This document shows positions 2,047-53,861 of a stretch of 64,000 nt of DNA, piece after piece. The stretch covers positions 1,031-65,030 of the forward strand of contig CAYHNG010000005.1 of the NCBI GenBank assembly GCA_964357975.1. Reading direction: 5' to 3'. This DNA is from an uncultured Pseudomonadales bacterium. GTDB lineage: Bacteria; Patescibacteriota; Microgenomatia; UBA1400; MFAQ01. A program made the position numbers and the translations under genes. Numbering within the stretch: the first letter of the stretch is position 1; each line of letters starts with the position of its first letter. Under the pieces are notes generated by a model. That model saw nothing but the letters and a program-made list of their open reading frames with translations, was not told the DNA's origin and did not search any database.

Positions 2047-2907
2047 TTAGGATGCGATTGAGAGTGAAAGCACACCTACAAGAGTGATGACAATACCCAA
2101 TATTTGTTGTTTGGTTAGTCTATCTTTAAAGACAAAATAAGCTAAGATTGCAAAAAGAGCCGGATAGGAGCTGGATATTGGAGAAACGACAGAGCTTTGA
2201 CCAATAGTCAGAGCGTAATTGACGGAAAAGAGGGCGATTGTAAGTAAGACGGCGTTGGTCAACATAAACAATTGATTTGTCCTCCCCTTTGGGAATACTA
2301 GTTTTATTGATCTTATTTTCATAAAAATCAACACTAAAGGGAATCCCCAATACGACAGGTAAGTTGGCCAGAACCATCCGATATTTTGGAGAGGTATTTT
2401 GACAAAGGTGTAATATATTCCCCACGCGAGTAGGGACGCTAGAGCGAAAGGAATTCCTTTATCCGATAAAATTTGCCTTGAGTTAAGACTTCTAAGGTTG
2501 AGTGAAGAAATAACAAGTCCTAGTATTATGGCCAAGATTGATATAACTTGGGCGACATTTAATTTTTCTCCAAGAAATATGACAGAAAGGATGGCCACTA
2601 ACCCTCCGAAGGCACTGGCTATAGTACCAACCAGTGAAGGGTTCCCGACTTTAAACCCTTCGTACAAAGAAATTAGCGGAGTGATGCCGATAGGAGTAAG
2701 AATCAACAACCAGATGATGGTGGTGGGAGTAATACTACTGAGTTCGTGCCAGGCAAACGGAATGTAAAATGAAGTCAGAATGATACTGATAATGTATGAC
2801 AATATGGCCGATGAGTAGCCTCCTATTTTACGGGCAACCAGACCGCCAAAAATGTCGGCAGTTGCCCATCCAATGGCGGTAATAATGGCGAAGATGATTG
2901 GTGTCAT
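2047..2907 (-). CDS. EamA/DMT family transporter
   Basis: About 10 predicted TM helices with two EamA-like halves. 286 aa. Confidence 0.7.
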   Translation of the reverse strand: MTPIIFAIITAIGWATADIFGGLVARKIGGYSSAILSYIISIILTSFYIPFAWHELSSITPTTIIWLLILTPIGITPLISLYEGFKVGNPSLVGTIASAFGGLVAILSVIFLGEKLNVAQVISILAIILGLVISSLNLRSLNSRQILSDKGIPFALASLLAWGIYYTFVKIPLQNIGWFWPTYLSYWGFPLVLIFMKIRSIKLVFPKGRTNQLFMLTNAVLLTIALFSVNYALTIGQSSVVSPISSSYPALFAILAYFVFKDRLTKQQILGIVITLVGVLSLSIAS

Positions 2908-2937
2908 TTGTTTATTGTAGCGATGTAAAATAGTTTA

Positions 2938-4116
2938 GTGAGGAGAAATATTAGCTTGGCATATTTTCTGTCGTTTGCCTTTCATGGGTGGTTTTGGCTG
3001 GGGAACTGGATATTTTATTATCTAAGCTTTGGCAATTATATGACGGTGGCATTGTTGGATTCGGGAGCCGTGATGACAGAATTAATTTTTGAAATCCCTA
3101 CCGGAGCCTTAACTGATTTGATAGGCAAAAAGAAAACCTTAATGCTCGCCTTTTTATTACAAGGGATTGGGTGTTTATTGATGGGGATCTCGAGTAGTTT
3201 CTGGATGCTGGCTCTTTCTCTCTGGGTTTTTGTTTGTATAGGCGGTGCTTTCTATTCCGGAACAATGGAAGCGTTGGTTTATGACAGTCTAAAAAGTGTC
3301 GGAGAGGAACATTTATACGAGAAAAAGATTGGCGTAGTTGGGGCAACTAGGCTGTGGTCTATGGCAATTTGTGGAATCATTGGCGGTCTTTTGTATTATA
3401 TTTCGCCGGGACTTCCATACATACTGAATGGGGTTTTTTGTCTAATTGGTTTCGCAGTTTGCGCGTGGATAGTTGAGCCGGTAGTAGACACAGAAAAATA
3501 TAAATTGAGTAGTTTTTTTGTACAAAATTCTTTGGGTATTAAAACTTTGTTTAAGAGTAATTATATGAAGAAAATATCATTATATTTGGTGGCAACGGGA
3601 AGTCTTTCCATTGTTGTCTACAACTTGTTGGATGATCTTCTGGCGGTTGAATACGGCTTCTCACCTTTTGGAATTAGCATTCTGTTTTCCGTTGCATGTC
3701 TGGTGGCCGGATTTGCATCGATGTATGTCCCTCGTCTAAAAATAAAATTCGATGAGAGAATGATGCTGATTGTTTCGATGGTGGTAATGGCTTTTGTTTT
3801 GATACTTTCCCCTTTAATTGGCATGGTATTATCAGGAGTTTTACTGATGGTTAGGGTAATACTGGAAGTACTCTATGACAATGCAAGTTCGACGATAATT
3901 AATAGGAATACAGATTCAAGTGTTAGTGCTACCACCCTGTCATCTCTAAGTTTGCTTAGAAGTCTTCCCTATGCTATTGGTGGCTCGTTTATCGGTGGCG
4001 CAGTTCAGTTTGTGGGAGGGGCAAAGAACTTTTCGATGTGGTTTGGGTTGGCGCTGATGATCATTACGGTAGTATTGGGGGCGAGAATAGAAAGAGATAA
4101 GAAAATCCCCTCTTAG
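2938..4116 (+). CDS. MFS transporter
   Basis: 12-TM profile. MFS-like loop motif ...PTGALTDLIGKKK... between TM2 and TM3. Confidence 0.7.
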   Translation: MRRNISLAYFLSFAFHGWFWLGNWIFYYLSFGNYMTVALLDSGAVMTELIFEIPTGALTDLIGKKKTLMLAFLLQGIGCLLMGISSSFWMLALSLWVFVCIGGAFYSGTMEALVYDSLKSVGEEHLYEKKIGVVGATRLWSMAICGIIGGLLYYISPGLPYILNGVFCLIGFAVCAWIVEPVVDTEKYKLSSFFVQNSLGIKTLFKSNYMKKISLYLVATGSLSIVVYNLLDDLLAVEYGFSPFGISILFSVACLVAGFASMYVPRLKIKFDERMMLIVSMVVMAFVLILSPLIGMVLSGVLLMVRVILEVLYDNASSTIINRNTDSSVSATTLSSLSLLRSLPYAIGGSFIGGAVQFVGGAKNFSMWFGLALMIITVVLGARIERDKKIPS

Positions 4117-9475: not shown

Positions 9476-9503
9476 AAAATCCACCCGTGTGGGTGGATTT
9501 GTT
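9474..9503. terminator. bidirectional intrinsic terminator between xer gene and convergent membrane-protein gene
   Basis: A-run, then hairpin ATCCACCC-gtgt-GGGTGGAT, then T-run. Confidence 0.5.
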
Positions 9504-18595: not shown

Positions 18596-18649
18596 CCAAT
18601 CTTGTTAACCTTCAAGGCCTGGCCTTGAAGGCGTGTATAATTGTGACAA

Positions 18650-19345
18650 ATGCCACAGAAAAATAGTCGTAAAGAATACGGAGCTGGTGGCTATTATCAT
18701 ATTTACAATCGTGGTGTTGAGAAACGAGATATTTTTCTAGACGAACAAGACTATAAAGTCTTTCTCGGATATATGAAGTTTTACCTAGAACCTCCCGACC
18801 TTCAAGGCCAGGCCTTGAAGGATCCAGAAGGCAAGGTTATTTCTCCTTCGAGAGAACCAAAGAACTATTCTTCTCAAATCGAGTTACTGTCTTATTGCTT
18901 GATGCCAAATCACTTTCATTTACTAATTAAACAATCTACCAATAGAGGCATAGCGGAATTTATGCAATCTTTGGTGCTTAAATACGTTTTGTACTTCAAC
19001 AAGAAATACAAAAGGGTTGGGGGTTTGTTTCAGGGAAGGTATAAAACTGTTTTGATTGAGACGGAGGAACAATTTGTTTACGTTTCAAAATATATTCATC
19101 GGAACCCGATCGATCTTTTAACTTCACCTTCAAGGCCTGGCCTTGAAGGTGTTGAAGGTATCTGTGAGTATAAATATTCGAGTTGTGGTAATTATGTAGG
19201 CTTGTTCAGTCAGAACTGGGTTAAGCCACAGGAAATAAGCTCTTACTTTAAGAAGATTAAGCGTAATTCTAGCTATAGATCTTTTGTTGAGGAAGCAAGT
19301 GGTTTAACAAAAGTGTACTTTGAGATGATAGATTTAGAACAATAA
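18650..19345 (+). CDS. IS200-like / REP-associated tyrosine (Y1 HUH) transposase
   Basis: Y1_Tnp hallmarks: YHIYNRG...IFLDEQDY, HUH motif MPNHFHLL, catalytic Tyr region RYK...YIHRNP. 231 aa. Confidence 0.8.
   Translation: MPQKNSRKEYGAGGYYHIYNRGVEKRDIFLDEQDYKVFLGYMKFYLEPPDLQGQALKDPEGKVISPSREPKNYSSQIELLSYCLMPNHFHLLIKQSTNRGIAEFMQSLVLKYVLYFNKKYKRVGGLFQGRYKTVLIETEEQFVYVSKYIHRNPIDLLTSPSRPGLEGVEGICEYKYSSCGNYVGLFSQNWVKPQEISSYFKKIKRNSSYRSFVEEASGLTKVYFEMIDLEQ
18799..18821. repeat. 23-bp perfect palindrome inside RAYT-1 CDS (encodes LQGQAL)
   Basis: CCTTCAAGGCCAGGCCTTGAAGG, in frame. Confidence 0.9.
19127..19149. repeat. 23-bp perfect palindrome inside RAYT-1 CDS (second internal copy)
   Basis: CCTTCAAGGCCTGGCCTTGAAGG, in frame (SRPGLEG). 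Confidence 0.9.
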
Positions 19346-19432
19346 TTTCTCTCTGCACGGTTTGCATTTCTTGAGATGGAGCCTGTCCTTCAAGGCCAGG
19401 CCTCGAAGGTGACTATATGAGAAGTGTCACCG

Positions 19433-39923: not shown

Positions 39924-41903
39924 TTACCAAGTAACGAGTCTGCTGGCAATCTCCTCCGCTTTTTGCCTATTTTGGTGGATAATTTCCCTGGCATCGTGCT
40001 TGGCGAGTGTAAATAGTTTTTTTGACCAAAAATACTTGAGACGGGTTTGGAGTGAGCCATGTTGTTTTTCGCCATATATCTGCCCTGCTCCACGAAGCCG
40101 AAGATCTTTTTGAGCCAGGACTAACCCGGCGTGAAATTTTTGAAGTAACTGAAGCCGTTCAGTTTCCACCTCGTCGTCTCCGGAGGGCACCAGAAAACAG
40201 TATCCCTGTCCTTCTCCCCTACCCACTCGACCGCGAAGCTGGTGAAGTTGAGCCAGTCCAAATCTTTCTGCCGAATGAATGACCATGATGTTGGCGGCCG
40301 GAATATCGATTCCCACTTCAATCAGAGAAGTGGAGGTTAAGAGACTCCCCGGAGTGTTTTTGAACTGGAGGAGAATGCTCTGTTGGTCTTCGGGCGACAG
40401 CTTGCCATGAATGGTCCAGACAGGAAACCTTTCCGGGAGTAGACGCCGGTATTCCGCCGTTATCCGTTCAACAGAGGCCACATTTTGATGATGGTCCGAA
40501 ATATTAGGACAGACCACGAAGATTTGATTGCCTTTTTCCAGCTCCGAAATTAGCCATTTGGGACTGTCTTTGAATTTTGTAGGTGAAACAACGAAAGTCT
40601 TGACCGGTAAACGGTTGTTGGGTTTGTGGTGAAGATTGCTGATTTCGATATCCCCCAACAATCCTAAGGCAACTGTTCTCGGAATAGGAGTAGCGGAAAG
40701 ATTAAATAGATGAGGAAGAGGGCTTCTTTTCATAAGCATTTCTCTTTGGACAACACCGAACTTGTGTTGTTCGTCTATGGCTACAAAGGCAAGCGGTGGG
40801 TTTAAATCGGGTGGAAGCTGATTGAGCAACGCGTGAGTGCCAATAAAAAGCGTGGGTAAGGAAGAAATTTCTACCTTGTGAGTAGAAGTAACCAGTTTAA
40901 CTTGGTCCGGAAAGAGGGAGTATTTTTGGAAAGTGTGGAAGTGTTGAGTGGCTAGGATTTCAGTGGGTGCCATAAGAGCGCAACTGAAATTGGCCGATAA
41001 CGTCTGATTGGCGGCAAAGATTAGTGGTGCTGTCTTTCCGGAACCTGTTTCACCTTGAATGAGTCGATGAGTAAACTCGTGGTTCTTCAGATCTCTTTCG
41101 AGATGGTGAATAGTTTTTAGTTGATCGGAGGTTACGGTAAAAGGAAGAAGATCGGAGGTTTGTGTATCTACCTTGTGAGTGATTCTTATGGGAATCGAGG
41201 GACCGAGTTTGTCCAACTCCAGACGGTTGTTGATATTTATTCTGAGATGTTCATTGTAGGCCAGACGTTTATCGGCTGACCAGCGCTCACTACTTTCTGA
41301 GGGAAAATGAATTTGGATTAACGCTTTGGAGAGAGGAATAAGGCCACTTTTACTTAAGAGTTCCGTTTTCAAAGGATCCTGAAGATCAATATCTTGCAGA
41401 ATTTCGTAGATCTTTTTTCGAAGCCATCTGGAATTGAGACCTTCGGTTTGTGGGTAGAGAGGAACCAGCCCCTTAGTATTAAGGGTGAATGAGTCCCCTT
41501 CTTCAATAATCGGGGAGATAATGGTTAGTCCCTTACCAAAAAAACTAGGTCTGCCGGCGATACTATACGATGCGCCGTCTTTGATCAGTCTCTTTATATA
41601 TGGGTTGTTAAACCAAGTTAAGGTAATTCTTCCGGACGAATCTTGAGCGACTGATTGGGTAACCAGTTTACCCCCGGATGAGTAGAAAGTCTTGGGACTG
41701 TTGATTACCGCCAAAAAAGAACCGGGAATTTTTTCTTTGAGGTCTTTAATCTTATTTTGCTTGGAAAAATCAAGATAATTTCTGGGGAAATGTTTTAGTA
41801 AATCTCCTACTGTATATATCTCAAGGCGATTGAGCTTTTCTTCAATGGCGGGACCCACGCCCTTAACCGTGGAGATCGAGTCTCCGGTAGAGTATATACT
41901 CAT
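39924..41903 (-). CDS. recG: ATP-dependent DNA helicase RecG
   Basis: N-terminal wedge domain. Helicase motifs GETGSGKT and DEQHKFGV. 659 aa. Confidence 0.9.
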   Translation of the reverse strand: MSIYSTGDSISTVKGVGPAIEEKLNRLEIYTVGDLLKHFPRNYLDFSKQNKIKDLKEKIPGSFLAVINSPKTFYSSGGKLVTQSVAQDSSGRITLTWFNNPYIKRLIKDGASYSIAGRPSFFGKGLTIISPIIEEGDSFTLNTKGLVPLYPQTEGLNSRWLRKKIYEILQDIDLQDPLKTELLSKSGLIPLSKALIQIHFPSESSERWSADKRLAYNEHLRININNRLELDKLGPSIPIRITHKVDTQTSDLLPFTVTSDQLKTIHHLERDLKNHEFTHRLIQGETGSGKTAPLIFAANQTLSANFSCALMAPTEILATQHFHTFQKYSLFPDQVKLVTSTHKVEISSLPTLFIGTHALLNQLPPDLNPPLAFVAIDEQHKFGVVQREMLMKRSPLPHLFNLSATPIPRTVALGLLGDIEISNLHHKPNNRLPVKTFVVSPTKFKDSPKWLISELEKGNQIFVVCPNISDHHQNVASVERITAEYRRLLPERFPVWTIHGKLSPEDQQSILLQFKNTPGSLLTSTSLIEVGIDIPAANIMVIHSAERFGLAQLHQLRGRVGRGEGQGYCFLVPSGDDEVETERLQLLQKFHAGLVLAQKDLRLRGAGQIYGEKQHGSLQTRLKYFWSKKLFTLAKHDAREIIHQNRQKAEEIASRLVTW

Positions 41904-44593: not shown

Positions 44594-44658
44594 CTATACC
44601 TTGTTCTAGTCTGATATCCTGCAGGGCCTGGCCCTGCAGGTGATTATAATGGTAATAT

Positions 44659-45339
44659 ATGCCACAGAAGAATAGTCGTAAAGAATACGGTGCCGGTGGT
44701 CACTATCACGTTTATAACCGTGGGGTAAACAAGAGTTCGATATTTTTAGACGAACAGGATTTTAAGGTTTTTCTTGGGTACTTAAAACTGTATCTTGAAC
44801 CACCTAACCTGCAGGGCCAGGCCCTGCAGGATGAGAATGGAAGAACAATCCCTCCTTCAAAGGAACCTAAGAACTATATGGGTGAGATTGAGTTATTGGC
44901 ATATTGTCTAATGCCTAACCATTTTCATTTGCTCATTAAACAAAATACCGATAGAGGTATTGCTGAGTTTATGCAGTCTTTAATTCAGAGATATGTGATG
45001 TATTTTAATAAAAAATATATGAGAGTGGGAGGACTTTTCCAAAGTAGGTATAAATCGGTTTTAATTGAGGATGAAAACCAATTTGTGTATATCACTAAAT
45101 ATATCCATCGAAATCCGATCGATATTTTACCTGCAAAACTTGGCACTGCAGGATATGAAGTTTATCGATATTCTTCGTATGGGAATTATCTCGGTTTGTT
45201 TCAACAGCGATGGGTTCGGCCGGAGCAGATTCTTTCATATTTTTCCAATATGAAAGAAGGAAGTACTTATCAAAGCTTTGTAGAGAATACGGTGTCAGAC
45301 GATTTAACTAAAGTATATTACGAGATGATGGATAATTGA
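44659..45339 (+). CDS. IS200-like / REP-associated tyrosine (Y1 HUH) transposase, paralog 2
   Basis: MPQKNSRKEYGAGGHYHVYNRG..., HUH MPNHFHLL, RYK...YIHRNP. 226 aa. Roughly three-quarters identical to the 18650 paralog, by eye. Confidence 0.8.
   Translation: MPQKNSRKEYGAGGHYHVYNRGVNKSSIFLDEQDFKVFLGYLKLYLEPPNLQGQALQDENGRTIPPSKEPKNYMGEIELLAYCLMPNHFHLLIKQNTDRGIAEFMQSLIQRYVMYFNKKYMRVGGLFQSRYKSVLIEDENQFVYITKYIHRNPIDILPAKLGTAGYEVYRYSSYGNYLGLFQQRWVRPEQILSYFSNMKEGSTYQSFVENTVSDDLTKVYYEMMDN
44808..44830. repeat. 23-bp perfect palindrome inside RAYT-2 CDS (encodes LQGQAL)
   Basis: CCTGCAGGGCCAGGCCCTGCAGG, in frame. Confidence 0.9.
45130..45152. repeat. degenerate internal palindrome in RAYT-2 CDS
   Basis: CCTGCAaaacttggcacTGCAGG keeps the 6-bp outer arms at the position homologous to the second internal palindrome of paralog 1. 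Confidence 0.6.
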
Positions 45340-45412
45340 ATGCTTGTTCTAGTTTGATATCCTGCAGGGCCAGGCCCTGCAGGATACTTGATGATGGGAT
45401 ATTAGAACAACT

Positions 45413-49225: not shown

Positions 49226-49256
49226 TGAAAAAACTCCCCTGAACGGGGAGTTTTTA
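49226..49256 (-). terminator. intrinsic terminator downstream of rplT (bidirectional form)
   Basis: AAAAA, then ACTCCCC-tgaac-GGGGAGT, then TTTTT. Confidence 0.55.
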
Positions 49257-50470: not shown

Positions 50471-50499
50471 AGAAAAAAAAGACGCCATGTAATGGCGTC
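50471..50499 (-). terminator. intrinsic terminator of the small Cys-protein gene
   Basis: Minus strand GACGCCAT-tac-ATGGCGTC followed by TTTTTTTT. Confidence 0.6.
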
Positions 50500-50506
50500 T
50501 GCGAGA

Positions 50507-51097: not shown

Positions 51098-51171
51098 TGG
51101 GCCCGACTGGACTCGAACCAGTGACCTCTGCAATGTCAATGCAGCGCTCTAGCCAGCTGAGCTACGAGCCC
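51098..51171 (-). tRNA. tRNA-Val (anticodon GAC)
   Basis: Hand fold gives acceptor GGGCTCG/CGGGCCC, D arm GCTC/GAGC, anticodon stem CTGCA/TGCAG with loop TTGACAT, T arm ACTGG-TTCGAGT-CCAGT, discriminator A. No CCA encoded. Confidence 0.85.
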
Positions 51172-51180
51172 GAAATTTTA

Positions 51181-51250
51181 TTATTTGATGAGCGCTTCTA
51201 GCCTCAGCCGTAGGCTGATCCGCCTTTGGAGGAAGCTGAGCTACGAGCCC
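51181..51250 (-). pseudogene. tRNA-Val 5'-fragment (acceptor + D arm) with about 28-nt insertion
   Basis: Minus strand GGGCTCGTAGCTCAGCT[tcctccaaaggcggatcagcctac]GGCTGAGGCTAGAAGCGCT. The first 16-17 nt are identical to tRNA-Val positions 1-17. No anticodon or T arm follows. Confidence 0.45.
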
Positions 51251-51306
51251 ATGCGCCTGCGGCGCTATTTTAGGCCTTCGGCATAAAATACATATGTATT
51301 TTATCA

Positions 51307-51858
51307 TCAGCCAACAGATGTGGCTACGGCGCGTTCATTGGCTTGAGTGTAGGAATTGCCTTTGGACTTGGCCATGCTCCAGTAAACACCTTTTTTGGCG
51401 GATCGACCATTGTACATTTCCAGCCAACTATTGGCGTCCTGAACCTTAAGACTAAAAATTTGGATCATTTTCTGGATGTGGGTTAGGAAACTTTCGTGAT
51501 AGACTCCCGCTTCGGAAACCGGAGACTCCACCGCTTTAAGAAGGTTGGCATCGAGGGTTTTTACCTGTTTGGCTAAATTCCTCAGCTGCTCTCTAATCTC
51601 GTCAATTCGCCTTTCAGTTTGTTTTTCTTTTGAAGAGTAGACCTTACTCCATTCTTGCTTTCTGGCTTGGGAAAAGGCTTCGGCACGTCGTTTCTCGCTC
51701 TCTTTCTTTTGCTGGAACTCGGCAAAGGGGTTGGTTTTTGATTCTTGATTACCGTTTTCGAACGTTCTGGCTTGAGAATTACGAAGAGCCTCCAAAAAAC
51801 TCTGAATCTTGGAGTTTCCCTGACTTTGGTTTGATGAGCTGCCCGTATTACTGTTCAT
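51307..51858 (-). CDS. hypothetical protein (low-complexity N-terminus, coiled-coil)
   Basis: 183-aa ORF with S/N/Q-rich N-terminus and a charged helical middle. No family recognised. Confidence 0.45.
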   Translation of the reverse strand: MNSNTGSSSNQSQGNSKIQSFLEALRNSQARTFENGNQESKTNPFAEFQQKKESEKRRAEAFSQARKQEWSKVYSSKEKQTERRIDEIREQLRNLAKQVKTLDANLLKAVESPVSEAGVYHESFLTHIQKMIQIFSLKVQDANSWLEMYNGRSAKKGVYWSMAKSKGNSYTQANERAVATSVG

Positions 51859-51875
51859 AACGTGGCCCTATAATA

Positions 51876-52652
51876 TCAGATGCCCATTAAATAATCAATG
51901 GTTTTGCGCCGATTCATGATGGACCGGAGCTGATCCATTTGTTTTGATGAAACATTGGACACCATGGCTAATTCTAACAGTTCCTTGTCTTCGGTGTCTA
52001 TTTTTTGGTCTTTGGCAATTTCCAGTAGCAGGAGATCAAGGCGGACGGATTTTTCGGCACTATCCGAGTACTCTTTCTTTACCTGCTCAAGGTTTTTTCC
52101 GAGAGCCTTGAGATAGTCTTCGAGCGGGAGGTTGAGGGATTTGGACTGGGAAGCTAACCGTTCCAAACTATGATTAACTTCTTCGTTGATGACCAACTCC
52201 GAAACATCCACTTTTTCATGGTCCAGGAGAGCTTGGTAAACATCTTCGACCTTCCGGTCTTTTTTGTCTTTGGTTTTGAGATATTTGGTATAGTCGCCAA
52301 GCTTAATTTCCGGATAGAGCGGCAGTTGGAGTTTGATTTTCCAACTACCGTCTTTTTCGGCTTTAAGTTCTTCCAAGACAGGCCGCCCCAAAAGCCGGTA
52401 GTGGTTTTCTTCGATGGTATGTTCGAGGAGGTGACTCATGACGTGGTTAAGAATGTGATCGCTCAACTTGTCCGGGTCAAGATTTTTTTCGGCGACAGCT
52501 TTGGGGGCCTTGCCCTGACGAAAGCCCTTGACGGTGACGGTTTTGATCATTTCGTCGACTACGTGGTTTTTTTCGATATCGACTTCTTCGTGAGAAACCG
52601 TGGCTTCCAGATAGGCAGTCCCCTTTTCAATTTTGATTTGTTTGGTGTTCAT
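51876..52652 (-). CDS. tig: trigger factor (N-terminal and C-terminal domains only, no PPIase domain)
   Basis: Ribosome-binding signature VKGFRQGKAPKAVAEK (GFRxGxxP). 258 aa, so the FKBP/PPIase middle domain is missing. Confidence 0.7.
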   Translation of the reverse strand: MNTKQIKIEKGTAYLEATVSHEEVDIEKNHVVDEMIKTVTVKGFRQGKAPKAVAEKNLDPDKLSDHILNHVMSHLLEHTIEENHYRLLGRPVLEELKAEKDGSWKIKLQLPLYPEIKLGDYTKYLKTKDKKDRKVEDVYQALLDHEKVDVSELVINEEVNHSLERLASQSKSLNLPLEDYLKALGKNLEQVKKEYSDSAEKSVRLDLLLLEIAKDQKIDTEDKELLELAMVSNVSSKQMDQLRSIMNRRKTIDYLMGI

Positions 52653-52704
52653 AGCGTCTTATTTTAACCCATCAAGAGCTGGCGGTGGTAAAATGATTAG
52701 ACTT

Positions 52705-52785
52705 GCCGAGGTGGCGAAATGGTAGACGCACTAGCTTTAGGAGCTAGCGGGGCAACCCATGGAGGTTCAAGTCCTCTCCTCGGCA
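52705..52785 (+). tRNA. tRNA-Leu (anticodon TAG)
   Basis: Acceptor GCCGAGG/CCTCGGC, 3-bp D stem, anticodon loop TTTAGGA, long variable arm, T arm GGAGG-TTCAAGT-CCTCT. Confidence 0.85.
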
Positions 52786-52790
52786 CCGAA

Positions 52791-53420
52791 TTACTCCAGA
52801 TGGTCGAAGAACTGTGAGACGCCGTTGGCCCAAGAACCATCTGAAGGAGGGGTATAGGTCTTCATGACTTCCAGTGGGTCTTTACTGTGTTTACCTTTGA
52901 GAAAGATTTTGGTGAATTGGGGTGCAATTCTTCGAAGAGCATCCTCGTAGTTATCGAAACGGGTGACCTTGAGAACTGCCGGGTTTGATGGTTCCGGATA
53001 TATCCCCCACCCCCAGCAGTTATACGAATTTTCTGGGATCCTTTTACAGAGATTTGATTCTTGCTGGGCAATAGCTACTAGCCAGCGGTAATCAAACTGA
53101 TACTGATCCGAAAGAGACACAATGAGATTTGAGTACTGCTCTAGAGGTGAGCCGAATTTGTGGAGATATTGACGAATGATCTCCGGTCGGGCGTCGGCGG
53201 TGATAATTGAAGTCTTTATTTGCTCGTCAAAGGCCGGTAACGCGGAGAAGATAAATGGTTCTTCCGGGTTGGGAATGGTTTCGGAGTTAAGATTGTCTGT
53301 TGTAACGCCTAAAATAAGTTTTGACTCATTTGTGTTTTGAATCAGAGTGGTGTTGATACCAAAGGCAATACGTGAAGTGATTACAAAAAGTGCCAGCAGA
53401 TACAAAAACTTTTTCGCCAT
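52791..53420 (-). CDS. secreted peptidoglycan hydrolase-like protein (glucosaminidase/FlgJ-like motif)
   Basis: Signal peptide. WLVAIAQQESNLC...NCWGWGIY resembles the AQAALESGWG...N(L)FG glucosaminidase motif. 209 aa. Tentative. Confidence 0.4.
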   Translation of the reverse strand: MAKKFLYLLALFVITSRIAFGINTTLIQNTNESKLILGVTTDNLNSETIPNPEEPFIFSALPAFDEQIKTSIITADARPEIIRQYLHKFGSPLEQYSNLIVSLSDQYQFDYRWLVAIAQQESNLCKRIPENSYNCWGWGIYPEPSNPAVLKVTRFDNYEDALRRIAPQFTKIFLKGKHSKDPLEVMKTYTPPSDGSWANGVSQFFDHLE

Positions 53421-53465
53421 AAGCTAATTTACTGTGGCAGAAATAAGCGACGATGTCAAGAAAAG

Positions 53466-53486
53466 GTGCACCAAGAGGGAGTCGAA
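53466..53486 (-). repeat. 21-nt duplicate of the tRNA-Arg 3' end
   Basis: GTGCACCAAGAGGGAGTCGAA at 53466-53486 is identical to 53609-53629 (T-loop through discriminator of tRNA-Arg). Confidence 0.8.
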
Positions 53487-53571
53487 GTCTTCGGTAACAT
53501 CTGCTGATGTTCCTCAGACCGCGCCTCAGCGCCGGTCGCGCTTCCGGCAGGTTCTCCTCCCGCGAGTTTAC

Positions 53572-53599
53572 AAACAAAAATCTCCCGACAAGCGAGAGA
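53572..53599 (-). terminator. intrinsic terminator after tRNA-Arg; same hairpin as at 46136
   Basis: Minus strand ATCTCTCGCTTGTCGGGAGA followed by TTTTTG. Confidence 0.5.
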
Positions 53600-53609
53600 T
53601 TTTGGTTTG

Positions 53610-53683
53610 TGCACCAAGAGGGAGTCGAACCCCCAACCGACAGCTTCGAAGGCTGGCGCTCTATCCAGTTGAGCTATTGGTGC
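53610..53683 (-). tRNA. tRNA-Arg (anticodon TCG)
   Basis: Acceptor GCACCAA/TTGGTGC, D arm GCTC/GAGC, anticodon loop CTTCGAA (U33, A37), T arm GGGGG-TTCGACT-CCCTC. Confidence 0.8.
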
Positions 53684-53711
53684 ATGGGTGTATTTTAGAC
53701 TAATTCGGAGC

Positions 53712-53747
53712 GATTGTTATAGATCCCCGCCTACGCGAGGATGACAA
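53712..53747 (-). promoter_or_regulatory. conserved GC-rich promoter-associated motif upstream of tRNA-Arg (copy 2)
   Basis: Minus strand TTGTCATCCTCGCGTAGGCGGGGATCTATAACAATC, about 85% identical to the infC-upstream copy. Confidence 0.4.
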
Positions 53748-53787
53748 TAGAGATAACGCGAGAAAATGGGGTAAAATATGTAGGTTC

Positions 53788-53861
53788 GGGTCAGTAGCTC
53801 AGTTGGTTAGAGCACCTGCCTCTTAAGTAGGGTGTCGCGGGTTCGAGTCCCGCCTGACCCA
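53788..53861 (+). tRNA. tRNA-Lys (anticodon CTT)
   Basis: Acceptor GGGTCAG/CTGACCC, D arm GCTC/GAGC, anticodon loop CTCTTAA, T arm GCGGG-TTCGAGT-CCCGC. CC encoded after the discriminator. Confidence 0.8.

What the first reader, a model, noticed from the sequence alone, without database searches (positions are those of the whole stretch)
18609..19409. IS200/RAYT-like Y1 transposase whose cognate 23-bp palindrome occurs four times: both flanks and twice inside its own reading frame
The perfect palindrome CCTTCAAGGCC(W)GGCCTTGAAGG (11-bp arms, 1-nt loop) sits at 18609-18631, immediately after the upstream gene. The same sequence occurs in frame at 18799-18821 (encoding DLQGQALKD) and 19127-19149 (SRPGLEG). 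A one-mismatch copy at 19387-19409 follows the stop. The centre nucleotide alternates T/A/T/A, i.e. the hairpin orientation alternates. Canonical IS200/IS605 TnpA and RAYTs use subterminal hairpins outside the ORF. Hairpins embedded in the coding sequence of the enzyme that presumably recognises them are not something I recognise from described elements. Possible meanings: self-targeting or autoregulation, mRNA structure, or in-frame REP insertions.
Basis: seen in the sequence. Interest (0 to 1): 0.8.

Follow-up and report, generated by a model that had tools for sequence, protein, structure and literature searches.

The report
CPR RAYT gene carrying own palindromes
A transposase-like gene of an ultra-small groundwater bacterium carries its own 23-base recognition-type palindrome on both flanks and twice in frame inside itself; this kind of arrangement has been described before in other bacteria, but here it is family-wide and the internal copies are actively kept identical at the DNA level.

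Summary
CCTTCAAGGCC-W-GGCCTTGAAGG occurs at 18609, 18799, 19127 and, with one mismatch, 19387; none are expected by chance. The ORF 18650-19345 is a Y1 HUH enzyme whose model is closest to E. coli TnpA-REP (RAYT). A 70%-identical paralog at 44659-45339 has its own palindrome at the same four positions, differing by two compensatory pairs.

This is a rule in a large Patescibacteria family: each gene has its own palindrome upstream, downstream and often in two hypervariable surface loops. The same 23-mer is dispersed in related groundwater metagenomes. About half of those sites are intergenic and half lie in frame inside housekeeping genes (Obg, FolD, RecG, RuvC).

The in-ORF stems show 0/44 substitutions against an ortholog whose synonymous sites are saturated, while the centre base flips. 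Deletion variants break at the palindromes.

It is best read as a REPtron-like RAYT/REP system whose REPs tolerate translation. In-frame REPs inside tnpA-REP genes (Quentin 2018) and in other genes (Di Nocera 2013) are published, so the core idea is not new. New here are the CPR family, the non-GTAG perfect palindrome, the insertion positions and the evidence for homogenisation. The T/A/T/A alternation is not conserved. Verdict: new variant of a known kind, moderate interest.

The parts
18609..18631 (.). Upstream palindrome U of copy A (centre T at 18620). It ends 18 nt before the ATG and covers the -35/spacer region of the presumed promoter.
   Evidence: family-wide position -30 to -75
18636..18641 (+). 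TATAAT, a -10-like hexamer 8 nt before the ATG. It is conserved in the paralog and implies a leaderless or near-leaderless mRNA.
   Evidence: Family test: 27/82 loci have a promoter-like pair placed this way versus 1% of control anchors. The simple window scan found no full sigma-70 match on the + strand.
18650..19345 (+). RAYT-like Y1 HUH gene, copy A, 231 aa. HuH motif = H88/H90; catalytic Tyr = Y148.
   Evidence: Pfam Y1_Tnp E 2.8e-11; invariant H88, Y148 in a 90-sequence alignment; AF2 pLDDT 84; Foldseek best hit 4er8_A; dN/dS 0.06 versus ortholog
18799..18821 (.). Internal palindrome I1 (centre A), read in frame 2 as LQGQALK. It lies in the hypervariable loop between helix 32-46 and strand 77-85.
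19127..19149 (.). Internal palindrome I2 (centre T), read in frame 1 as PSRPGLEG. It lies in the loop after the catalytic-Tyr helix; the arms extend to 13 bp (19125-19151).
19143..19160 (+). 9-nt tandem duplication TTGAAGGTG/TTGAAGGTA of the 3' arm end of I2. It gives the extra residues VEG (168-170).
   Evidence: similar 9-12 nt duplications next to copies in L091, L092, L093, L094, L103, L121
19387..19409 (.). Downstream palindrome D of copy A (centre A, one mismatch), 42 nt after the stop codon.
44618..44640 (.). Upstream palindrome U of paralog B: CCTGCAGGGCC-T-GGCCCTGCAGG.
44659..45339 (+). RAYT-like Y1 HUH gene, copy B, 226 aa, 70% identical to A.
44808..44830 (.). Internal palindrome I1 of B (centre A), encoding LQGQALQ. 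Three of its four differences from A are synonymous.
45130..45152 (.). Decayed internal palindrome I2 of B (CCTGCAAAACTTGGCACTGCAGG, 5 mismatches). Only the outer 6 bp still pair.
   Evidence: The intact form PAGPGPAG is seen in P0009 and in P0018/L134.
45361..45383 (.). Downstream palindrome D of B (centre A); arms extend to 14 bp (45358-45386).

Best explanation
Copy A, and its paralog B, is a REPtron-like unit of a Patescibacteria (CPR) genome. It consists of a RAYT-type Y1 HUH single-strand DNA nuclease/ligase gene together with its cognate REP-like hairpin. The hairpin is a perfect 11+1+11 palindrome that folds in ssDNA into a 10-bp stem with a C-W-G loop. The enzyme presumably binds and cuts or joins this hairpin when DNA is single-stranded.

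Copies of the hairpin lie upstream of the gene (over its promoter region), downstream, and in frame in two hypervariable surface loops of the protein. In related genomes they are also scattered sparsely between genes and in frame inside housekeeping genes. The palindrome is stop-free in two of three frames in either orientation (PSRPGLEG or LQG[Q/L]ALK), so copies in loops are tolerated.

The copies belonging to one gene are kept identical by a DNA-level process. The likely process is enzyme-mediated replacement or gene conversion between copies, plus hairpin-templated correction of the two arms. They are not kept identical by protein or RNA selection. The internal copies are also a hazard, because they act as deletion breakpoints.

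Shown: identity of the enzyme family; the four-site architecture and its covariation across lineages; dispersal; in-frame use in other genes; loop location; nucleotide-level conservation; centre flips; deletion variants. Inferred: that this protein binds or cleaves this hairpin; that it drives the homogenisation; that the upstream copy affects transcription.
For: Enzyme. Pfam Y1_Tnp is above its cut-off. HuH and Tyr are invariant. The AF2 model's best PDB match is TnpA-REP bound to a REP hairpin, 4er8, E 1.4e-6, ahead of IS608 and ISDra2. dN/dS is 0.06.

Cognate link. Paralog B has two compensatory pair changes (positions 4/20 and 7/17) at all homologous sites. In 82 loci, U matches D of the same locus at >=85% in 70% of cases versus 0.26% across loci. 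I1 and I2 match their own flanks in 50% and 58% of loci versus <1% across loci. Five lineages with four palindrome types show one gene, one palindrome, four sites. I1 and I2 peptides covary across 120 homologs as one DNA word read in two frames.

Dispersal. 41 metagenome stretches hold the exact 23-mer, and 40 of 58 occurrences lie outside Y1 genes. There are 7 extra cognate copies in 215 kb flanking 43 genome loci, each matching its own contig's gene.

In-frame tolerance. Obg, FolD, RecG, RuvC, RarA, a P-type ATPase and others carry the palindrome in frames 1 or 2 only. Obg shows presence/absence among 80-87% identical orthologs, with +48 nt in the filled allele. I1 and I2 lie in low-pLDDT, indel-rich loops.

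DNA-level maintenance. There are 0/44 stem substitutions versus L090 at 24% divergence and saturated synonymous sites (P 5.7e-6), with the centres flipped to the complement. There is no sense-strand G:T bias.

Hazard. L096 lacks I2-to-D and L090 lacks U-to-I1, with junctions at the palindromes.

Inheritance. The gene is vertically inherited at a syntenic locus across relatives of 75-85% nucleotide identity.

Precedent. PMC6006769 and PMC3733652.
Against: No biochemical link between this protein and this hairpin exists. The window itself (64 kb) holds no dispersed copy of either palindrome, so REP-like spread in this very genome is not shown. The dispersed copies come from related metagenome contigs. 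The palindrome lacks the GT[AG]G foot that defines canonical REPs, and the protein scores below the NCBIfam RAYT cut-off (39.9 and 45.1 versus 80 bits). In FolD the palindrome occupies the same columns as unrelated native sequence with no indel, which simple insertion does not explain. Strict nucleotide conservation of the internal copies could reflect selection for a function rather than homogenisation. The Obg copy decays in one lineage whereas the copies inside the RAYT gene do not.
Confidence: 0.7

Rival explanations
1. The copies in and around the gene are functional cis-regulatory self-targets. The enzyme binds the upstream hairpin over its own promoter, and perhaps the internal ones, to limit its own expression or to inactivate its own gene, and selection for this keeps the copies perfect.
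For: The upstream palindrome covers the -35/spacer region directly before a conserved TATAAT. Family-wide, 27/82 loci have a promoter-like pair placed for a leaderless start, with the -35 inside the palindrome in 16 of them. Internal stems are conserved at saturated synonymous sites, whereas an in-ORF copy in Obg decays. The gene carries about 100-fold more copies per kb than flanking DNA.
Against: Occupancy of I1 and I2 is patchy across the family: I1 only, I2 only, both, or none. Paralog B has let I2 decay. The window copies lack a recognisable -35. Cis-preference of the enzyme explains the local enrichment without any function. Deletion variants suggest cost rather than control.
Confidence: 0.17
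2. It is an autonomous IS200/IS605-type insertion sequence whose left and right end hairpins are U and D. The internal copies would be alternative or nested ends.
For: Y1_Tnp domain. Hairpins on both sides of the gene. In paralog B the 18 nt 5' of U are repeated 5' of D.
Against: The gene sits at the same syntenic locus in relatives of 75-85% nucleotide identity. The two copies in the window are only 70% identical and have different hairpins. The fold is closer to TnpA-REP than to IS608/ISDra2. No tnpB is present. The hairpins are perfect palindromes rather than the imperfect, oriented end structures of the IS family. The hairpin alone, without the gene, is what is dispersed.
Confidence: 0.05
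3. The palindromes act as RNA hairpins in the mRNA, affecting stability, ribosome pausing or RNase processing.
For: Two copies are transcribed as part of the ORF, and a third follows the stop codon. The stems are stable.
Against: The upstream copy lies before the -10 box and so is probably not transcribed with the gene. Stem mismatches show no excess of G:T over A:C on the sense strand (13 versus 14). Identical copies occur in both orientations, between genes and inside unrelated genes. No T-run follows D. No Rfam family matches.
Confidence: 0.05
4. Coincidence of codon choice, or a conserved protein motif (LQGxAL, PxRPGLEG) that happens to be palindromic.
For: LQG and a following L are >=90% conserved in the closest 90 homologs.
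Against: None of 100 shuffles gave a match. The two peptides covary as one DNA word read in two frames. Non-coding flanks carry the same word. Three of four A-versus-B differences in I1 are synonymous yet compensatory. Both segments are hypervariable loops.
Confidence: 0.01

Closest known systems
REPtron: RAYT / TnpA-REP gene flanked by its cognate REPs (Nunvar 2010; Ton-Hoang 2012; Bertels and Rainey 2011; reviewed in PMC6006769)
   Same: A Y1 HUH enzyme of RAYT-like fold. The gene is flanked by its own specific hairpin, and each paralog has its own hairpin family. It is low-copy and vertically inherited at a fixed locus. The hairpin, without the gene, is dispersed in the genome.
   Different: There is no GT[AG]G foot. 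The hairpin is a short perfect palindrome with only the centre base asymmetric. Copy number is low (about 1 per 30 kb where measured, none elsewhere in this window). The host is Patescibacteria. The protein is below the NCBIfam RAYT cut-off. About half of the dispersed copies are inside ORFs.
TnpA-Y1 subclass 2.4 with REPs inserted in frame inside the tnpA-REP gene (Quentin, Siguier, Chandler, Fichant 2018, PMC6006769)
   Same: Cognate REPs lie inside the enzyme's own reading frame without disrupting it, in a peripheral variable region.
   Different: [quoted passage not shown] Here one site is N-terminal of HuH and the other follows the Y helix. The two sites recur across a large family, and the copies covary with the flanks.
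REPs and Rickettsia palindromic elements inside protein-coding genes (Ogata 2000; Di Nocera 2013, PMC3733652)
   Same: Palindromic repeats are translated in frame within functional housekeeping genes, notably replication and repair genes. Here these are RecG, RuvC, RarA and Obg.
   Different: The element here is only 23-24 nt (8 codons). It is tied to an identifiable cognate enzyme gene. At one orthologous site (FolD) different genomes carry different perfect variants.
IS200/IS605 TnpA (IS608, ISDra2)
   Same: The catalytic core and the presumed ssDNA hairpin recognition.
   Different: It is not a multi-copy mobile unit. It has no oriented imperfect end hairpins with guide and cleavage tetranucleotides, and no tnpB.

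Membership tests
Y1 HUH transposase superfamily (Pfam PF01797) | HuH motif and single catalytic tyrosine on the conserved core; profile score above the curated cut-off | tested here: met
   44 bits versus cut-off 23. H88 and Y148 are invariant and H90 is >=90% conserved in 90 homologs. The fold matches 4er8, 2vjv and 2xo6.
RAYT / TnpA-REP (REPtron) | Gene flanked by copies of its own specific palindromic repeat | tested here: met
   U and D in both window copies. U-D match in 70% of 56 loci versus 0.26% cross-locus.
RAYT / TnpA-REP (REPtron) | The same repeat is dispersed in many copies in the host genome | tested here: inconclusive
   No copy elsewhere in the 64-kb window. However, 40 occurrences lie outside Y1 genes in related metagenome contigs, and there are 7 extra cognate copies in 215 kb around 43 family loci. 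The whole genome of this organism was not available.
RAYT / TnpA-REP (REPtron) | REP carries a 5' GT[AG]G tetranucleotide at the hairpin foot | tested here: not met
   Feet are CCTT.../...AAGG. The flank logo of 34 unique sites shows only A at -1 (24/34).
RAYT / TnpA-REP (REPtron) | Scores as NCBIfam NF047646 REP_Tyr_transpos equivalog | tested here: not met
   39.9 and 45.1 bits versus cut-off 80. It is nevertheless the only NCBIfam hit.
RAYT / TnpA-REP (REPtron) | Low copy number and vertical inheritance at a fixed locus rather than multi-copy transposition | tested here: met
   Syntenic orthologs L090, L096, L103 and L115 over >10 kb at 75-85% nucleotide identity. The two window paralogs are 70% identical.
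RAYT / TnpA-REP (REPtron) | Enzyme binds and cleaves its REP as ssDNA | not testable with these tools
   Only the predicted ssDNA hairpin stability and the fold similarity to the 4er8 complex are available.
TnpA-Y1 subclass 2.4 (Quentin 2018) | [quoted passage not shown] | tested here: not met
   I1 is at residues 50-58, before HuH (88-90). I2 is at residues 160-167, after Y148. There is no GTAG. Description from PMC6006769.
IS200/IS605 insertion sequence | Several near-identical copies of the whole unit, oriented imperfect subterminal hairpins, often with tnpB | tested here: not met
   (neighbours are gyrB, holB-like, an unknown gene and T2SSE).
In-ORF palindromic repeats (RPE-like, intragenic REPs) | Repeat translated in frame within otherwise conserved genes, with presence/absence among orthologs | tested here: met
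   13 host ORFs. Obg filled versus empty at 87% identity, +48 nt. FolD variants.

The most novel reading that the evidence does not exclude
The enzyme continuously rewrites existing hairpin sites. Under this reading, all copies in a genome track one lineage-specific master sequence, including those fixed at orthologous in-frame positions in FolD, Obg and the two loops of the RAYT gene itself. The copies inside the enzyme gene would act as protected master templates, or as a built-in self-limiting fuse. That would be genome-wide concerted evolution of a translated repeat driven by an HUH enzyme, and a first in-vivo readout of what RAYTs do.
Probability: 0.25. Interest if true: 0.8.

Novelty: new variant of a known kind. 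Interest (0 to 1): 0.55.

Why it matters
What RAYTs do in cells, and how REPs are copied, are still open questions. This family offers natural experiments. It has short, perfectly symmetric hairpins whose only asymmetric base flips. It has copies at fixed coding positions that stay identical while synonymous sites saturate. It has several palindrome types that switch concertedly at four sites of one gene, and natural deletion variants that end at the hairpins. It also shows that in gene-dense CPR genomes a REP-type element survives largely by being translatable, adding 8-residue cassettes to loops of housekeeping proteins. For annotation, LQGxAL[KQ] and P[SA][RG]PG[LP][EA]G peptides in CPR proteins mark such elements.

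Tried and rejected
1. Empty-site test with RecG. The window ortholog (40011-41867) is only 34% identical to the palindrome-bearing RecG, so no clean indel could be called.

2. Empty-site test for the extra intergenic copy in L090. The neighbouring gene is replaced there, so the comparison is not clean.

3. Test that cognate palindromes are selected to be stop-free. Observed 2.23 open frames versus 2.05 expected, p 0.054, inconclusive.

4. Sense-strand G:T versus A:C mismatch bias as a sign of RNA-level selection. None found.

5. Sigma-70 consensus scan of the window locus. No + strand promoter was called at copy A. Only the family-level test was positive.

6. Rfam scan. Only four tRNAs were found, nothing at the loci.

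7. Alternating orientation as a rule. Rejected by orthologs and close homologs.

8. Simple +24 nt insertion as the only way copies arise. Contradicted by FolD, where the palindrome replaces native sequence with no length change.

9. Sequence search of PDB gave only marginal ISDra2 hits (E 0.07). The fold search was needed.

10. Literature searches for CPR/Patescibacteria RAYT or REP descriptions found nothing specific.

Full report
OBSERVATION

The 23-mer CCTTCAAGGCC-W-GGCCTTGAAGG is present at 18609 (centre T), 18799 (A), 19127 (T) and, with one mismatch, 19387 (A). 100 dinucleotide-preserving shuffles gave no match even at three mismatches. The ORF 18650-19345 (+, 231 aa) contains the two middle copies in frame. 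I1 starts at codon position 3 and reads D-LQGQALK-D. I2 starts at codon position 1 and reads PSRPGLEG. As ssDNA each perfect copy folds into a 10-bp stem with a C-W-G loop at -10.8 to -13.6 kcal/mol.

THE GENE

The protein matches Pfam Y1_Tnp above its cut-off. Its only NCBIfam hit is the RAYT model, but below that model's cut-off. H88 and Y148 are invariant, and H90 nearly so, in 90 homologs. An AlphaFold2 model (pLDDT 84, pTM 0.82) is most similar to E. coli TnpA-REP bound to a REP hairpin (4er8, E 1.4e-6), ahead of IS608, ISDra2 and IS200 transposases. Against a syntenic ortholog dN/dS is 0.06, so the protein is under purifying selection. Neighbours are gyrB, a holB-like gene, an unknown gene and a T2SSE ATPase, and there is no tnpB. 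The contig comes from Hainich groundwater well H41, 0.1 µm fraction.

THE PARALOG

A second gene at 44659-45339 (70% identical) has CCTGCAGGGCC-W-GGCCCTGCAGG at the homologous upstream, I1 and downstream positions, plus a decayed copy at I2. The two palindromes differ at positions 4/20 and 7/17, both as compensatory pairs. In I1 three of the four changes are synonymous. That alone shows a nucleic-acid constraint.

FAMILY-WIDE ARCHITECTURE

More than 7,800 homologs exist, and the named ones are Patescibacteria. In 120 of them the I1 and I2 peptides covary exactly as one DNA word read in two frames: LQGQALK with PSRPGLEG, LQGQALQ with PAGPGPAG or PARPGLAG, and LQGLTLK with PTRSHLEG.

In 80 genome loci of 36-63% identity, most genes carry a locus-specific palindrome upstream (-30 to -75) and downstream. 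Many also carry it at I1 (+147 to +190) and/or I2 (+445 to +510). Same-locus similarity of at least 85% holds for 70% of U-D pairs, 50% of I1-flank pairs and 58% of I2-flank pairs, against under 1% across loci.

Three close homologs fetched with DNA confirm the pattern with other palindrome types:
- L133 has CCTGCAAGGCCAGGCCTTGCAGG, perfect at all four sites.
- L134 has the B type, perfect at all four sites.
- L135 has CCTGCAAGGTCAGACCTTGCAGG at U and I1, and at I2 with two mismatches; no downstream copy was found.

In L133 and L134 all centres are A. In the 94% ortholog L103 they are A/T/A/A. The T/A/T/A alternation is therefore not a rule.

WHERE THE INTERNAL COPIES SIT

I1 and I2 fall in two low-confidence loops of the model (residues 47-76 and 158-170). 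Across the family these are the two most indel-rich, hypervariable segments. Occupancy is patchy: I1 only, I2 only, both, or none. At I2 different lineages read the palindrome in different frames.

DISPERSAL AND TRANSLATION ELSEWHERE

The window has no other copy of either palindrome, even at six mismatches. A scan of metagenome contigs, however, found 41 stretches with the exact 23-mer. Of 58 occurrences at three mismatches or fewer, 40 lie outside any Y1 gene. About half of the unique sites are intergenic. The other half are in frame inside recognisable Obg, FolD, RecG, RuvC, RarA, P-type ATPase, aminotransferase and glycosyltransferase genes. These always use frame 1 (PSRPGLEG) or frame 2 (LQG[Q/L]ALK), because frame 3 contains TGA.

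Around 43 family loci with a confirmed cognate palindrome there are 7 further copies in 215 kb. Each matches its own contig's gene.

Obg shows presence/absence among orthologs of 80-87% identity. The filled allele is 48 nt (two 24-nt units) longer than an 88%-identical empty one, and a third ortholog has a decayed copy. With the centre oriented to T, position -1 is A in 24 of 34 unique sites, which suggests a 24-nt, 8-codon unit.

FolD is different. About 45 of 120 orthologs carry LQGxxL[KQ] in the same columns where the others have unrelated sequence, with no length change. At DNA level different genomes carry different perfect palindromes there (A type in L087 and L101, the L135 type in L129), and others carry decayed ones. 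I cannot explain this by simple insertion.

MAINTENANCE AND INSTABILITY

L103, L115, L096 and L090 are syntenic with the window over more than 10 kb at 75-85% nucleotide identity. The 44 stem nucleotides of I1 and I2 show no substitution against L103 (8.2% divergence, P 0.023). They show none against L090 either (24% divergence, synonymous sites saturated, P 5.7e-6). Both centre bases are changed to their complements.

Among homologs the I1 centre codon (Q for A, L for T) differs in 49% of pairs at 80-90% identity, against 18% for an average column. Stem mismatches show no sense-strand G:T excess.

L096 is an L103-type gene lacking everything from I2 to D. L090 lacks U to I1. Both junctions lie at the palindromes or at the short tandem duplications next to them. 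Such 9-12 nt duplications of the arm end are frequent, and one produces the extra VEG in copy A.

PROMOTER

Both window copies have TATAAT 8 nt before the ATG, directly after the upstream palindrome. Family-wide, 27 of 82 loci have a sigma-70-like pair placed for a leaderless start, against 1% of control anchors. The -35 lies inside the palindrome in 16 of them. The window copies have no recognisable -35.

INTERPRETATION

The evidence fits a REPtron-like RAYT/REP system whose hairpin is short, symmetric and translatable. The copies inside the enzyme gene are two of many in-frame copies. They are concentrated there probably because the enzyme acts preferentially near its own gene, and they are tolerated because they lie in loops. 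They are not passively decaying. They are held identical to the flanking copies while neutral sites saturate, and the only asymmetric base flips. This points to copy replacement or conversion, plausibly by the enzyme, combined with arm-to-arm correction in the hairpin. This step is inferred, not shown. A regulatory self-target role, especially for the upstream copy, is the main rival. RNA-level, insertion-sequence and coincidence readings are poorly supported.

COMPARISON WITH WHAT IS KNOWN

Each tnpA-REP gene having its own REP family is established. In-frame REPs inside tnpA-REP genes are reported for subclass 2.4 (PMC6006769). REPs and RPEs inside housekeeping genes, especially repair genes, are reported in PMC3733652.

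Several features do differ here:
- The host group. No CPR description was found.
- The lack of a GTAG foot.
- The perfect palindrome with a flipping centre.
- The two recurrent positions outside the HuH-Y interval.
- The overlap with the promoter.
- The quantitative evidence for homogenisation, including at an orthologous site in FolD.

I class it as a new variant of a known kind, of moderate interest.

Noticed in passing
window 44600-44617 and 45343-45360: In paralog B the 18 nt immediately 5' of the upstream palindrome (CTTGTTCTAGTCTGATAT) are repeated 17/18 immediately 5' of the downstream palindrome. The gene is therefore bracketed by a 41-nt direct repeat apart from the centre base. Copy A has only CTTGTT near its upstream copy. 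This could mark how the gene cassette was integrated or duplicated.
   Followed up: no
window 19143-19160; also L091, L092, L093, L094, L103, L121: Short tandem duplications (9-12 nt) of the palindrome arm end plus 1-3 flanking bases lie next to many copies. Inside ORFs only multiples of three are seen, such as the extra VEG in copy A. The I2-D deletion in L096 has its junction in these duplications.
   Followed up: partly
FolD orthologs P0241-P0360; L087, L101, L129-L132: At one orthologous position of FolD (after QLP[IV]PG), about 45 of 120 CPR orthologs carry a palindrome-encoded LQGxxL[KQ] with no length difference from orthologs that have unrelated sequence. Different genomes carry different perfect palindrome types there.
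   Followed up: partly
L083, L105, L107 (metagenome contigs): A very large (>2,300 aa) surface-type protein carries several palindrome-encoded peptides (PSRPGLEG, LQGQALK, QGLALQ) near its N-terminus. It also has a segment resembling an intein/Hint insertion.
   Followed up: no
L085 3623-3680 (Obg): Two different palindrome types sit side by side in frame: the A type, then CCTATAAGGCCTGGCCTTGCGG. This suggests clustering of copies from different families at one loop.
   Followed up: no
L134 3317 (-6684 relative to the gene): An intergenic copy CCTTCAAGGCCTGGCCCTACAGG looks like a hybrid of the A-type left arm and a B-like right arm, in a genome whose RAYT gene has the B type.
   Followed up: no
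window 51098-53861: A cluster of four tRNA genes on both strands (51098-, 52705+, 53610-, 53788+).
   Followed up: no
window 9477-9500, 49229-49255, 50480-50500: Other perfect palindromes (arms 9-11) unrelated to the RAYT palindromes. The one at 49229 (AAAAACTCCCC...GGGGAGTTTTT) looks like a bidirectional terminator.
   Followed up: no
record titles of L005, L007, L009, L015, L038 and others: Several MAG records holding clear family members are titled Gammaproteobacteria, Pseudomonadales, Bathyarchaeia or Nanoarchaeia. The gene content and the other hits suggest that these are mislabelled or mis-binned Patescibacteria contigs.
   Followed up: no
L133 139-5479: A long stretch without called genes holds a LAGLIDADG homing-endonuclease ORF (2888-3379). 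This may be an rRNA operon with an intron, a few kb upstream of a RAYT family member.
   Followed up: no
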